A stretch of DNA of 63,266 nt, filler included, from Collodictyon triciliatum (lineage: Eukaryota): NCBI GenBank assembly GCA_043381765.1. It is 21 parts of 21 records of this genome, joined end to end, with 100 filler letters (N's around TTAATTAATTAA, not from the genome) between each part and the next. Parts side by side here need not be neighbours in the genome. Positions count along the whole stretch, not along the records: positions 47,069 to 50,000 come from JBHJMP010008055.1; 20 more parts are not named here. The stretch is one strand, 5' to 3'. The translations under genes and the position numbers were made by a program. Positions 47,120 to 49,110 of the stretch are shown one piece after another. How positions within the stretch are numbered: position 1 is the stretch's first letter; each line of letters begins with the position of its first letter. Under the pieces are notes generated by a model. That model was not told the origin of the DNA. It saw nothing but the letters and a program-made list of their open reading frames with translations, and did not search any database.

Positions 47120-49000
47120 ATGAAGAAAAGAAAACGTATTGAGTTTGAGAATATAAAGTCTGTAAAATCAGATATCGAAATGTAAAAACATCTCTGAAGT
47201 CGATTATAAAGAATCCAGATGACTATAACAAAATCAGCGATATGGTTTTATTGTGTCATAATTTGGTTACCGACACTTATCTGTTTGCAAGATGTTACAT
47301 ATCGAAATCGCAACAACTCCAAACAATCGATGAAATGTTTTTTTGTAAGCTTTAAAGAAAGTCAGAATAGTTTCACAAGATAGACCTGCAAGTTTTAAAA
47401 AACCAGATATGAGTATCGACGTGATTGCTTTTTATCTCAATGATTTTCGATTCCTTTTGTCCCGAGAACACTTTCCGTTGGTTGGACTGTCTCATGTATT
47501 ACCGTACTTGGCGAAGCAAATGCTAACAGTTTATCATAATTACATTAAGGAGCATTTTGTAAAGAGGTTACTGCGCTTTATAAATCAAACAGTACCTAAA
47601 AATGAGAATATTACGGAAGCTGTTAAAAAGGCAGAGTTACGAAAGTTAAAAGAAGTCATCTTCAAGAAACTCGAAATACCGGAACAATATAAAGGATGGG
47701 CTACAACGCATTTGCATCATAACATTCCCAGCGATATTGTAAATGGTATCGAATATGACGCCAAAGTCAATCCGAATAAGTACATTCCGTGTCTGAGTTA
47801 CATGAATCGCTTTTTTGAGGACATTGGAGCCAAACTTTTTCAACCAATATCTATAAGAACTACCAATATAATGTCATATTACTCTAGATACTGCATGTTT
47901 GGCAGATGTATTAGTATCATCTAGGGGAAAAACATCAATACTGAAGAATATATCAGGATGCAATGAGACCCTATGGGATGACATCTTTGAAATGAAGAGG
48001 AGGGTATTCAAACAGACTACAATTTTATATACATGATACAAACAAGCGGCTTGGCGGTGTTATTATTGTTTGAAAAGAAACGTATTTCAAATTCAAAATT
48101 CCAAATAAATAAATAAATAAATAAAAACAAGAACATGTTTATATAGATGAACTTTCCAAAGAGCAGTTATCTTTATTAGCGACAAAAAAAGAATAGTTGG
48201 AGTGGACGCAGGCAAGTTTAATTTTGTTTACATGGTGGATGAGACAAGTAAGAAATTACGTTGCACGGCACACCAAACAAGACATAATAGCAAATCTCTT
48301 GAAAATCACAAAATACTCTTGCGCGGGAAAGAGTTAAGTACAATTCTTTAGGGGCATGCATGGCAACAGATTTACAAAGTACTATTTCTTTTGGTCACAG
48401 GACTTTTGAAGAGAATCAGCAGTTTGAGACATCAAGAGTATATTTAATCGATTTAGAGACAGAACTAAGTTAACGAAATTCAAACACGGTCGATTATGAA
48501 AAAAAATTCGAAAATATGTATCCATGAAATCAAGATACCAGATAGAATTTTCAGATTTTATGAACACGTAACTTTTTGAGAGATGAGATGGAGGCAGTAT
48601 TTTAATACAAAAAGAAGTGAACAGTGGTTTATGAACCGAATCGAATAGACATTTGGCAAGGATGTTGTACTGGTGTATGGATACTGGAGCAGAAAATGTC
48701 CGATGAAACATTCTATGGCAACAATCGGAAGAGGATTACGAAAAATACTATCCAAATGTTTTGAAGCAGTTATTGTAAATGGATTTAGAACCTCCAAGAT
48801 ATGATGCAAGTGCGAAAAAGAACTGGAATACATGCCACCGAAAGGAAATACAAAAAAGTATATAGATGTGTCACATGTAAAGAATGCAATCGCTCAGAAA
48901 GCAAACAAAGTGTATTCTTGATAAGAGATTTAACAGTGCTGATAATATACTCAAGAAAGGTCTTTTAATTCTTCAAAAAAATACATGCACCTTCCTCTAA
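47120..49000 (+). pseudogene. Fanzor1 (eukaryotic TnpB/Cas12-related RNA-guided nuclease), full-length but decayed
   Basis: Colinear motifs across frames: MKKRKR; VKTSLKSIIK; YLAKQMLTVYHNYIKEHFVKRLLRFIN; KLFQPISIRT..HITLDT; MIQTSGLAV; RuvC-I RIVGVDAGK (Asp codon 48205-48207); NSNTVDYEK; MRWRQYFNTKRSE; VLVYGYWS; RuvC-II/zinc VNGFRTSKI*CKC; CKEC; RuvC-III RD(L)NSADNI (~48925-48950). Several frameshifts and stops; no introns seen. Confidence 0.88.
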
Positions 49001-49110
49001 AAAAAAAAAAAACAGGTTGTTGGGTCTTTCCCCTGGTAGGCTTCATCACTACAAAATCTTTGTGAAAAAAAGTGGCGAGACCCTGGATACTAACGAACCA
49101 GGTTTACCAA
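48960..49110 (+). ncRNA. Candidate Fanzor omegaRNA / element right-end region
   Basis: Lies immediately 3' of the Fanzor ORF. Nested pairing possible: GGGTCT 49022-49027 with AGACCC 49078-49083; CACT 49047-49050 with AGTG 49071-49074; ACAAA 49051-49055 with TTTGT 49059-49063. Boundaries unknown. Confidence 0.3.

What the first reader, a model, noticed from the sequence alone, without database searches (positions are those of the whole stretch)
47120..49110. Eukaryotic TnpB-family RNA-guided nuclease (Fanzor1) locus, decayed but reconstructable
Seen: about 600 codons of colinear Fanzor1-like sequence spread over several frames, of which the ORF track shows only 171 aa. It has a basic N-terminal MKKRKR (possible NLS), RuvC-I VGVDAG, a RuvC-II site reading VNGFRTSK where Glu is expected, two CxxC-type zinc pairs, and RuvC-III RD-NSA-NI. 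Established: Fanzors are omegaRNA-guided DNA endonucleases carried by eukaryotic transposons and giant viruses. Inference: this protist hosts or hosted such a system, and intact sister copies may exist elsewhere in the genome. No transposase is visible on this contig, so it may be a non-autonomous or virus-derived copy.
Basis: partly seen in the sequence, partly recalled or inferred. Interest (0 to 1): 0.85.

Follow-up and report, generated by a model that had tools for sequence, protein, structure and literature searches.

The report
Dead Fanzor1 nuclease gene copy
This stretch is a broken, no longer functional copy of a Fanzor1 gene (a eukaryotic RNA-guided DNA cutter carried by transposons and giant viruses); it is a real but fairly ordinary genomic fossil whose intact relatives are common in public data.

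Summary
Window 47120-49093 (+) is colinear over its whole length with an intact 648-aa protein from public metagenomes (P0001). Of 635 aligned codons, 377 are identical (59%). The reading is interrupted by 11 frameshifts and 5 internal stop codons.

The P0001 lineage is Fanzor1. Its family profile hits only the three solved Fanzor1 proteins, and matches SpuFz1 end to end at E 5e-101. Its AlphaFold model matches them at TM 0.65-0.79, against TM 0.39 or less for Fanzor2, TnpB and Cas12.

The window copy is also catalytically dead. The RuvC-II Glu is Gly, DPG reads DAG, TDG reads TSG, and the first zinc-finger Cys is TGA.

The "window" is a chain of about 21 separate 2.9-kb contigs. The gene sits alone on one of them, so ends, duplications and a transposase cannot be judged.

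Relatives are abundant. There are 3147 representative clusters, 449 giant-virus loci, and hundreds of 80-99% similar contigs in one coded organism. No omegaRNA could be detected in the window.

Verdict: a new member of a known kind, of low to moderate interest.

The parts
47069..47100 (.). poly(A) run at the start of the 2932-nt contig; the contig (and so any left end of an element) is cut off here
47120..49093 (+). Fanzor1 pseudogene. It has 12 frame blocks, 11 frameshifts (10 of them net -1), 5 internal stops plus 2 in the tail, and a terminal TAA at 49091-49093
   Evidence: Frameshift-aware alignment to P0001: 377 of 635 aligned codons identical. tblastn E 2e-75 and 9e-61.
47120..47137 (+). 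basic N-terminus MKKRKR, identical in P0001; a possible nuclear localisation signal (inferred)
   Evidence: N-terminal NLS in Fanzors: passages of PMC10530073.
47349..47921 (+). longest open block (191 codons), REC/WED part of the protein
   Evidence: Hit to Guillardia theta Fanzor1 9cer, E 7.5e-07. Hit to P0001, E 2.2e-55, 58% identity.
47870..47872 (+). frameshift that removes the invariant Pro254 codon (two bases missing compared with other copies)
   Evidence: In one search table 7, other copies read ...ATACC before 47871. Table 8 record 12 (run X2) spans the site with 0 gaps.
48042..48050 (+). WED-domain motif TDG degraded to TSG (AGC at 48045)
   Evidence: Motif from passages of PMC10711439.
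48196..48213 (+). RuvC-I VGVDAG: catalytic Asp kept (48205), family-invariant Pro replaced by Ala (48208)
48348..48446 (+). about 33-codon insert shared only with P0001 among the 8 aligned relatives (coordinates approximate); it marks the two as one sub-lineage
   Evidence: (A2 columns 534-566)
48577..48579 (+). TGA in place of invariant Arg487; every other laid copy reads C at 48577 (CGA)
   Evidence: table 3: X4 205.5 of 205.5 depth in 12 contigs, and all depth of X1-X3.
48646..48648 (+). TAG in place of Lys; every other laid copy reads A at 48646 (AAG)
   Evidence: table 3: X4 492.7 of 492.7 depth in 16 contigs, and all depth of X1-X3.
48781..48783 (+). RuvC-II: GGA (Gly) where the family has the invariant catalytic 'alternative' Glu (E555), six residues before the zinc finger
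48802..48887 (+). C4 zinc finger. First Cys codon is TGA (48802-48804). Remaining Cys at 48805/48811 and 48867/48876/48885, with a frameshift at 48851 in between
48924..48949 (+). RuvC-III: Arg-Asp (48924-48929) kept, then a one-base loss in a T run, then FNSADNI
49094..49152 (+). 3' trailer up to where related copies stop matching. This is the place where a right end or omegaRNA remnant would lie. A small hairpin CTGG/CCAG (49083-49101) encloses the stop codon. Not statistically supported
   Evidence: X4 depth 17.2 in 49077-49152 and 0 from 49153; X3 loose end behind 49150. Covariance-model search negative. Fold z +0.81.
49360..50000 (.). (CAACAAAAAC)n-type microsatellite filling the rest of the contig; not part of the gene

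Best explanation
Window 47120-49093 (+) is a non-functional fossil copy (pseudogene) of a Fanzor1 gene. It lies alone on a 2.9-kb contig of a fragmented, AT-rich eukaryotic (protist-like) assembly.

Its ancestor encoded a protein of about 650 aa with these parts: a basic N-terminus, WED/REC domains, a split RuvC nuclease (Asp in DPG, the Fanzor-type 'alternative' Glu just before a C4 zinc finger, and Asp in the RD motif), and, by analogy with the family, a guide RNA (omegaRNA) transcribed from the 3' end of the gene into the transposon's right end. Such enzymes cut double-stranded DNA that matches the guide next to a short motif. This is established for SpuFz1, GtFz1 and others, and is inferred here.

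This copy can no longer do that. The frame is broken 11 times, it has 5 internal stops, and four family-invariant positions are lost, including the catalytic Glu.

It belongs to a sub-lineage with the intact P0001. That sub-lineage sits in a large radiation whose labelled members are Fanzor-only elements of about 2.4 kb, bounded by terminal inverted repeats, in giant-virus genomes. Many more similar copies occur in one coded organism. The most likely history is therefore a once-mobile, multi-copy, non-autonomous Fanzor1 element, of which this copy has decayed.

Shown: homology, colinearity, the lesions, and the family's fold. Inferred: past RNA-guided activity, the mobility of this copy, and the host.
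For: Homology of the window copy:
- Piece 47349-47921 hits Guillardia theta Fanzor1 (E 7.5e-07) and P0001 (E 2.2e-55, 58% identity).
- The full-length frameshift-aware alignment has 635 aligned codons, 377 identical, 11 frameshifts and 7 stops.
- There is no other match in the window.

Family assignment of the P0001 lineage:
- P0001 against the PDB: GtFz1 2.1e-28, PpFz1 2.7e-24, SpuFz1 3.7e-23.
- The 40-sequence profile gives 3 hits at E<=0.001, and all 3 are Fanzor1. SpuFz1 is matched at 5.4e-101 over profile positions 8-606.
- The AlphaFold model (pLDDT 84.7) matches SpuFz, PpFz and GtFz at TM 0.65-0.79. The next tier (Cas12, Fanzor2 9b0l, TnpB 8h1j) reaches TM 0.39 or less.

Lesions at conserved sites:
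- Of 13 invariant columns the copy keeps 8 by the automatic alignment and 9 by hand. It has lost P254, P365 (to Ala), R487 (to TGA) and E555 (to Gly).
- It keeps 18 of 25 near-invariant columns.

The stops are private to this copy where that could be seen:
- 48577 and 48646 read sense codons in all other laid contigs of 4 runs.
- An independent contig (X2 record 12) reproduces 47852-48002, across the 47871 frameshift, with 0 gaps.

Assembly quality and genetic code:
- The neighbouring contig carries a 775-codon open frame (WD40 plus Ephrin_rec_like). So the assembly is not riddled with indels and uses the standard code there.

Tree:
- The window copy and P0001 group with SH-aLRT 100. The window branch is 0.56 against 0.22 for P0001 (quick tree).
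Against: - 10 of the 11 frameshifts are net one-base losses, and 8 of 11 lie within about 12 nt of a homopolymer of 4 or more. Some could therefore be sequencing or assembly errors, or the product of collapsing many diverged copies into one contig.
- The source reads were not available. The best run holds only 0.12 of the sampled words.
- X2 record 12 might come from the same sample as the window.
- For three of the five internal stops (48114, 48471, 48802), the table printed does not show what other copies read (375 rows were not shown).
- No omegaRNA, terminal repeat or target duplication could be shown for this copy.
Confidence: 0.9

Rival explanations
1. The gene is intact in the organism. 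The frameshifts are artefacts of sequencing or of assembling a multi-copy repeat into a chimeric consensus.
For: - 10 of 11 shifts are net -1 and 8 of 11 are near homopolymers.
- The family is highly multi-copy in one coded organism: 346 contigs laid at 80-99% likeness.
- The source reads could not be examined.
Against: - Indel artefacts do not explain 5 substitution-type stops, the Glu-to-Gly change, Pro-to-Ala, Asp-to-Ser, or the longer branch.
- The neighbouring contig has a clean 775-codon ORF.
- One frameshift site is reproduced without gaps in another data set (record 12).
Confidence: 0.05
2. The interruptions are biological read-through features, namely tiny introns, programmed frameshifts or a variant genetic code, and the gene is expressed as a whole protein.
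For: - Some protists have very short introns, reassigned stop codons or frequent programmed +1 shifts (recalled general knowledge).
- One TGA (48802) falls on a Cys position.
Against: - All three stop codons occur. They align to Lys, Arg, Lys and Cys, and each is one substitution away from the sense codon.
- Relatives read CGA and AAG at two of them.
- The shifts are 1-2 nt and lie inside conserved blocks, away from the stop codons (for example YRNV is recovered before the 0-frame stop).
- A 775-codon neighbouring ORF rich in Cys and Gln has no in-frame TAA, TAG or TGA.
- P0001 is one uninterrupted ORF.
Confidence: 0.02
3. The contig is not host chromosome proper. It is part of a giant-virus genome or of an endogenous giant-virus insertion, so the copy is virus-borne rather than a cellular transposon copy. 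This rival concerns origin only and is compatible with the copy being dead.
For: - The nearest labelled relatives are on giant-virus MAG contigs. 449 of 546 candidate stretches in IMG/VR encode relatives, the best at 44-47% identity over the full length.
- The ESM Atlas neighbours are 92-100% viral, mostly Nucleocytoviricota.
Against: - The window/P0001 pair is not nested in either viral clade by a supported branch.
- A search of IMG/VR with P0001 alone found no close relative.
- The contig carries a 640-nt microsatellite and a poly(A) run.
- A heavily decayed gene is less expected in a replicating virus.
- The contig is too short to decide.
Confidence: 0.12

Closest known systems
Spizellomyces punctatus Fanzor1 (SpuFz1; PDB 8GKH, 9CEU-9CEZ)
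   Same: - Same family. The lineage profile aligns end to end (E 5.4e-101).
- The predicted fold of the intact sister matches at TM 0.74-0.79.
- Same order of WED, REC, RuvC-I, RuvC-II, zinc finger and RuvC-III.
- Similar size (about 640 aa).
   Different: - Only about 20% sequence identity.
- The window copy is broken and lacks the catalytic Glu.
- No omegaRNA, TAM or transposon ends are known for this lineage.
Guillardia theta Fanzor1 (GtFz1; PDB 9CER) and Parasitella parasitica Fanzor1 (PDB 9CF0)
   Same: - Direct sequence hits from a window piece (GtFz1, E 7.5e-07) and from P0001 (2.1e-28 and 2.7e-24).
- DPG and Glu-before-zinc-finger positions align.
   Different: Both are larger proteins with extra insertions, and both are intact and biochemically active (titles; passages of PMC10432273).
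Fanzor1-only non-autonomous elements with terminal inverted repeats in large DNA viruses (for example the Spodoptera frugiperda ascovirus element described in PMC10711439)
   Same: The giant-virus relatives fetched here have the same layout.
- About 2.0-2.4 kb is shared between copies in one genome.
- A 26-nt terminal inverted repeat is present.
- Fanzor is the only ORF.
- The 3' RNA structure includes the right-end repeat.
   Different: - For the window copy the ends are off-contig or unrecognisable.
- The viral 3' RNA model does not hit the window.
- The window lineage is only 38-47% identical to the viral proteins.
Bacterial TnpB (ISDra2, PDB 8H1J) and Fanzor2 (mimivirus ApmFz2, PDB 9B0L)
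   Same: Same superfamily: RuvC fold with a zinc finger, and RNA-guided DNA cleavage.
   Different: - Only a weak fold match (TM 0.22-0.39), and no sequence hit at E<=0.001 with the profile.
- TnpB typically has D-hydrophobic-G and a Glu about 50 residues before the zinc finger (PMC10711439). This lineage has DPG and the Glu six residues before it.

Membership tests
Fanzor1 | Full-length sequence or profile homology to experimentally characterised Fanzor1 proteins, with colinear domains | tested here: met
   - Window piece against GtFz1: E 7.5e-07.
- Window colinear with P0001 over residues 1-648.
- The P0001-lineage profile hits only Fanzor1 in the PDB (3 of 3 hits; SpuFz1 5.4e-101).
Fanzor1 | DPG motif at the RuvC-I aspartate (Fanzor fingerprint, PMC10711439) | tested here: not met
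   The window reads D-A-G (GAC GCA GGC at 48205-48213). P0001 and all 40 aligned relatives have D-P. The Asp itself is kept.
Fanzor1 | Alternative RuvC-II glutamate six residues before the first CxxC | tested here: not met
   The window has Gly (GGA, 48781). E555 is invariant in 40 of 40 relatives.
Fanzor1 | C4 zinc finger between RuvC-II and RuvC-III | tested here: not met
   The first Cys codon is TGA (48802), and a frameshift (48851) separates the two pairs. The other Cys codons are present. The finger is intact in P0001.
Fanzor1 | RuvC-III R-D motif after the zinc finger (Bao and Jurka signature, PMC3627910) | tested here: met
   AGA GAT at 48924-48929, followed by a one-base loss and then FNSADNI.
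Fanzor1 | TDG motif in the WED domain (PMC10711439) | tested here: not met
   The window reads T-S-G (48042-48050). T312 is invariant, and D313 and G314 are conserved in at least 90% of relatives.
Fanzor1 | Fanzor1-type fold (bilobed, REC insertions) rather than the TnpB or Fanzor2 fold | tested here: met
   Tested on the intact sister P0001 only. The AF2 model has pLDDT 84.7. TM is 0.65-0.79 to SpuFz, PpFz and GtFz, against 0.39 or less for all others. The broken window copy cannot be tested this way.
Fanzor1 | Uninterrupted reading frame (a functional member) | tested here: not met
   11 frameshifts and 5 internal stops.
Fanzor1 | omegaRNA/reRNA encoded at the 3' end, overlapping the ORF end and the transposon's right end | tested here: inconclusive
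   - A covariance model built from 26 giant-virus relatives finds nothing at the expected place (best E 0.39, elsewhere and on the other strand).
- Folding 49000-49160 gives z +0.81.
- Related copies stop matching near 49150.
Fanzor1 | Residence in a eukaryotic-type transposon (terminal repeats, target duplication, sometimes a transposase) | not testable with these tools
   The contig starts 51 nt before the ATG. No inverted repeat pairs the two flanks of the gene; both pairs found have an arm inside the coding region. No genome is held.
Fanzor2 / prokaryotic TnpB | Compact TnpB-like architecture, IS607/IS605 context, and (for TnpB) a canonical Glu about 50 residues before the zinc finger | tested here: not met
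   - No Fanzor2 or TnpB chain is hit at E<=0.001 by the profile.
- Fold TM is 0.22-0.39.
- 0 of 9 window pieces and P0001 reach the cut-off of any Pfam TnpB family.

The most novel reading that the evidence does not exclude
The window copy is one fossil of a large Fanzor1 family that may still be active in a freshwater protist (the coded 'organism A'). This would be a distinct sub-lineage marked by a private insert of about 33 aa. It would be sister to, and may exchange with, the Fanzor-only elements with terminal inverted repeats that are abundant in giant-virus genomes. If so, the host-virus pair would be a natural system for watching RNA-guided nuclease elements move between a giant virus and its host, and the intact 648-aa form would be a new compact editor candidate.
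Probability: 0.3. Interest if true: 0.45.

Novelty: new member of a known kind. Interest (0 to 1): 0.25.

Why it matters
Fanzors are the eukaryotic RNA-guided DNA nucleases and are candidates for compact genome editors. A dead copy by itself adds little.

It does flag an unnamed AT-rich protist lineage as a carrier of a multi-copy Fanzor1 family. It also connects that lineage to a very large, mostly unannotated radiation: 3147 representative clusters and 449 giant-virus loci. Members of that radiation in giant viruses are neat 2.4-kb elements with a conserved, covarying 3' RNA.

The practical value lies in the intact relatives (P0001 and the viral elements), not in reconstructing this copy.

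Tried and rejected
- **Pfam on 9 frame pieces.** 0 of 9 matched a TnpB or Fanzor family; there were only 4 unrelated hits below cut-off. The pieces are too short, so this says nothing against homology.
- **RuvC-I piece against the PDB.** Nothing relevant.
- **Whole-genome search and genome file.** No genome is held.
- **Rfam on the whole window.** 0 matches.
- **Earlier findings of this scan.** None by place or by sequence.
- **P0001 in JGI metagenome contigs.** One distant locus only (L001, 21% identity), so the DNA around P0001 could not be obtained. P0001 alone in IMG/VR gave none.
- **The 40-sequence alignment for a locus search.** Too divergent. It was replaced by an 8-sequence alignment.
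- **Cluster look-up.** No organism names.
- **Sequencing runs.** No RNA holder is listed, and no run holds more than 0.12 of the words. Expression and the source reads remain unknown.
- **RNAalifold on all 46 viral tails.** No structure, because the alignment is gappy. A subset of 26 of the 47 dereplicated tails gave one. I chose these 26 because they carry the full hairpin and belong to the main clade. The 21 I dropped are the short-deletion variants, the L002/L003/L004/L006 clade and outliers.
- **Covariance model R1 on the window contig.** No hit at the expected place.
- **Folding of 49000-49160.** Not more stable than shuffles.
- **Resemblance seen by eye.** The window 3' trailer (GAAAAAAAGT..GAGACC, a hairpin, then TTTAC) resembles the viral 3' RNA. 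One apparent compensatory change shows up in loose-end consensus strings (CTGG/CCAG against TTGG/CCAA). I treat both as unsupported leads.
- **Programmed frameshifting, tiny introns and variant codes.** Considered and rejected (see rivals).
- **Terminal or inverted repeats around the gene.** None convincing.
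Full report
**What the window is.**
The 63,266-base window is not one piece of genome. It is a chain of about 21 contigs of almost equal, slowly falling length (2944 down to 2929 nt; one scaffold is 4440 nt). They are joined by spacers of 44 N, TTAATTAATTAA and 44 N. The finding lies on the piece 47069-50000 (2932 nt, GC 0.32). That piece begins with a poly(A) run, has the ATG at 47120, and ends in a 640-nt (CAACAAAAAC)n-type microsatellite from about 49360. 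Neighbouring 'genes' in the window are therefore not neighbours in the genome. No whole genome is held for this window.

**Check of the observation.**
- MKKRKR at 47120;
- a 191-codon open block at 47349-47924;
- VGVDAG at 48196-48213;
- VNGFRTSK at 48775-48798;
- Cys pairs;
- Arg-Asp followed by FNSADNI near 48924-48949.

Pfam did not recognise any of 9 single pieces, which is expected for such short fragments. The 191-codon block hit Guillardia theta Fanzor1 in the PDB (E 7.5e-07), with weak hits to the other two solved Fanzor1 proteins. In the 5.8-billion-protein collection it hit one long protein, P0001 (648 aa, E 2.2e-55, 58% identity).

P0001 is an uninterrupted ORF product. It has MKKRKR, VGVDPG, VNEFRTSKLCCNC, a second Cys pair and RDFNSANNI.

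**Frameshift-aware alignment.**
I wrote a protein-to-DNA dynamic programme that allows codon matches, gaps and 1- or 2-base skips, and recounted its events. Results:
- P0001 residues 1-648 align colinearly to 47120-49081.
- Of 635 aligned codons, 377 are identical (59%).
- The alignment falls into 12 frame blocks separated by 11 frameshifts.
- 10 of the 11 are net one-base losses. The eleventh (47871) is a two-base loss that removes an invariant Pro codon.
- Five stops lie in the conserved body: TAA 48114, TAA 48471, TGA 48577, TAG 48646, TGA 48802.
- Two more stops lie in the poorly conserved C-terminal tail.

tblastn of P0001 against the whole window gives E 2e-75 and 9e-61 here and nothing elsewhere.

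**What family it is.**
Sequence evidence:
- P0001 hits the three solved Fanzor1 proteins (GtFz1 2.1e-28, PpFz1 2.7e-24, SpuFz1 3.7e-23). In those alignments the DPG Asp and the Glu before the zinc finger line up.
- An exhaustive HMMER search found 3147 representative clusters at E<=0.001, of which 537 are at E<=1e-30.
- A profile of P0001 plus 39 full-length relatives (A1) hit exactly three PDB sequences at E<=0.001, all Fanzor1. SpuFz1 is matched end to end at 5.4e-101.

Structural evidence:
- AlphaFold2 on that alignment gave a confident model (pLDDT 84.7, pTM 0.83).
- Its Foldseek hits are SpuFz, PpFz and GtFz at TM 0.65-0.79.
- Cas12 variants, mimivirus Fanzor2 and TnpB follow at TM 0.39 or less.

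The literature read here supplies the fingerprints. These are passages of PMC10711439, PMC3627910 and PMC10530073. They are DPG at RuvC-I, an 'alternative' Glu six residues before the first CxxC, a TDG motif in the WED domain, a C4 zinc finger and an RD motif. P0001 has all of them, so the lineage is Fanzor1.

**State of the window copy.**
In A1, 13 columns are invariant. The copy keeps 8 by the automatic alignment. It keeps 9 once the Asp of RD (GAT, 48927-48929) is placed by hand before the one-base loss. It has lost:
- Pro254, through the two-base deletion;
- Pro365, now Ala (DPG reads DAG);
- Arg487, now TGA;
- the catalytic Glu555, now Gly (GGA at 48781).

It keeps 18 of 25 near-invariant columns. 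TDG reads TSG, and the first zinc-finger Cys is TGA. So even if every frameshift were an artefact, the product would be truncated and catalytically dead.

**Are the lesions real?**
Points for a real pseudogene:
- The neighbouring contig carries a clean 775-codon ORF (WD40 plus Ephrin_rec_like repeats). This argues against a generally indel-ridden assembly. It also argues against a non-standard code, because that Cys- and Gln-rich frame has no TAA, TAG or TGA.
- I laid contigs of four coded public runs on the region. In every laid contig of all four runs, position 48577 reads C (CGA, Arg) and 48646 reads A (AAG, Lys). These two stops are therefore private to this copy.
- Other copies carry the two bases missing at 47871.
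- One independent contig (X2 record 12) reproduces 47852-48002 with no gap.

Remaining uncertainty:
- 8 of 11 shifts lie near short homopolymers.
- The source reads were not found; the best share of words is 0.12.
- Some shifts could be artefacts or the result of collapsing repeats.

Programmed frameshifting, mini-introns and stop reassignment do not fit. The shifts sit inside conserved blocks, all three stop codons occur opposite Lys, Arg, Lys and Cys, and P0001 needs none of these features.

**Relatives and context.**
- P0001 and the window copy share an insert of about 33 residues that is absent from the six other close relatives aligned.
- They group with SH-aLRT 100 in a quick maximum-likelihood tree of 55 rows. 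The rows were the window copy, P0001, 7 viral ORFs dereplicated from 78, and 46 metagenome representatives of 560-800 aa.
- The window branch is 2.5 times longer than that of P0001. Their position relative to two giant-virus clades is unresolved. The careful search did not finish, so this is the quick tree.
- Closer fragments exist: 74-80% identity over 137-143 aa.
- One coded organism (run X4, 43 million letters) yielded 346 contigs on the region. Their likeness splits as 30 at 99% or more, 79 at 95-99%, 136 at 90-95% and 101 under 90%. This points to a multi-copy family there. Whether X4 is RNA is only a guess by the tool.
- ESM Atlas neighbours are 92-100% viral, mostly Nucleocytoviricota, and carry PF26935/DUF8286.
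- In IMG/VR, 449 of 546 candidate stretches encode relatives. The best 80 are 38-47% identical over the full length, many on giant-virus MAG contigs of up to 255 kb.

**What the giant-virus relatives look like (side result, from loci and not from the window).**
Element boundaries:
- Six pairs of copies within the same viral MAGs share only 1.9-2.4 kb, at 80.5-89% identity.
- A seventh pair (L003/L005) is the same sequence.
- Similarity among 3' tails ends sharply 70-90 nt after the stop. Of 4087 pairs, 2951 end in one 20-nt bin.

Terminal repeats and content:
- The right end reads GCGTTTTAAATGAGAAAAGGTGTAAA. Its reverse complement lies about 430 nt upstream of the ATG in many loci.
- The right-end 7-mer occurs in 72 of 78 loci, and both ends in 30 of 78. 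Left ends are often beyond the fetched stretch.
- These are therefore Fanzor-only elements of about 2.4 kb bounded by terminal inverted repeats.

The 3' RNA:
- The last 60 nt or so of the ORF plus the trailer fold into a conserved RNA with 28 pairs, and 99.2% of cells are paired.
- 21 cells show changes on both sides, against 4.5 +/- 1.7 in shuffles (0 of 500 shuffles reach this).
- Controls with partners slid by 1-3 columns are 46-61% paired.
- The stop codon sits in a hairpin, and the right-end repeat pairs with an upstream TTTACAYTTTT.

This matches what PMC10711439 and PMC10530073 describe for Fanzor1 guide RNAs, which include the terminal repeat.

**omegaRNA and ends in the window.**
- A covariance model of the viral 3' RNA (R1) finds nothing at the expected place on the contig. 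The best hit is E 0.39, on the other strand and elsewhere.
- The 3' region does not fold better than shuffles (z +0.81).
- No terminal repeats are seen.
- The contig begins only 51 nt before the ATG, whereas the viral left end lies about 430 nt upstream.
- Related copies stop matching near 49150, which is a plausible right boundary.
- By eye, the trailer resembles the viral RNA (an A-rich run, AGACC, a hairpin around the stop, then TTTAC). I treat this as a lead only.

**Mechanism.**
For the lineage, this is inferred from the family and was not tested here. The enzyme would be an RNA-guided double-strand DNA endonuclease. Its single RuvC site is formed by Asp364, Glu555 and Asp604. It is guided by an RNA transcribed from the gene's 3' end into the flank, and it is carried by a non-autonomous element that a transposase mobilises in trans.

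The biological role usually proposed for TnpB-type nucleases is to help the element persist after excision. I recall this from the literature and did not read it here.

For this copy there is no function. It is a decaying remnant.

**Verdict.**
The object is a new but dead member of a known, widespread family, so its interest is low to moderate (0.25). The more interesting material lies in the intact relatives and in the giant-virus elements.

Noticed in passing
window 1-63266: The window is a chain of about 21 size-sorted contigs (2944 down to 2929 nt) joined by N44-TTAATTAATTAA-N44 spacers. Adjacency in the window says nothing about adjacency in the genome.
   Followed up: yes
L002-L081 (e.g. 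L014:5516-7933, L038:5512-7932): Giant-virus relatives are Fanzor1-only elements of about 2.4 kb with a 26-nt terminal inverted repeat (TTTACACCTTTTCTCATTTAAAACGC and its complement). They also carry a conserved 3' RNA with compensatory changes whose last helix uses the right-end repeat.
   Followed up: partly
L002:5950-7902 and P0002: The metagenome protein P0002 (the best representative hit, 48% identical to P0001) is almost the same as the ORF on a 254-kb giant-virus MAG contig. Their tree branches are 0.077 and 0.073.
   Followed up: no
window 44689-46968 (+), separate contig: A 775-codon open frame with seven WD40 repeats, then about ten Ephrin_rec_like Cys-rich repeats, then a long Ser-Gln repeat running into the contig end. 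It looks like a eukaryote-type surface or repeat protein.
   Followed up: partly
window 50101-53031, separate contig: After an (AAAGA)-type repeat, the contig turns GC-rich (0.44-0.45 overall). It has long overlapping open frames on both strands (about 50045-50985 and 50771-51664) with no Pfam match for the 297-aa one. Its composition is unlike that of its neighbours.
   Followed up: no
window 47142-47158 and 49136-49152; 49121-49176: A 17-nt direct repeat (82%) links the start of the coding region and the 3' trailer. By eye, 49121-49176 also resembles the roughly 50-nt leader that other copies carry before the ATG (loose-end consensus at 47103). This could be the beginning of a second, tandem copy, or it could be chance.
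   Followed up: no
window 48097-48137: An AT-rich (TAAA)n-like insert containing a stop. It is absent from P0001, and some related contigs skip about 106 nt here (table 5).
   Followed up: no
window 47120-49093: 10 of the 11 frameshifts are net one-base losses, a strong deletion bias. It is either a mutational signature of decay or partly a sequencing artefact.
   Followed up: partly
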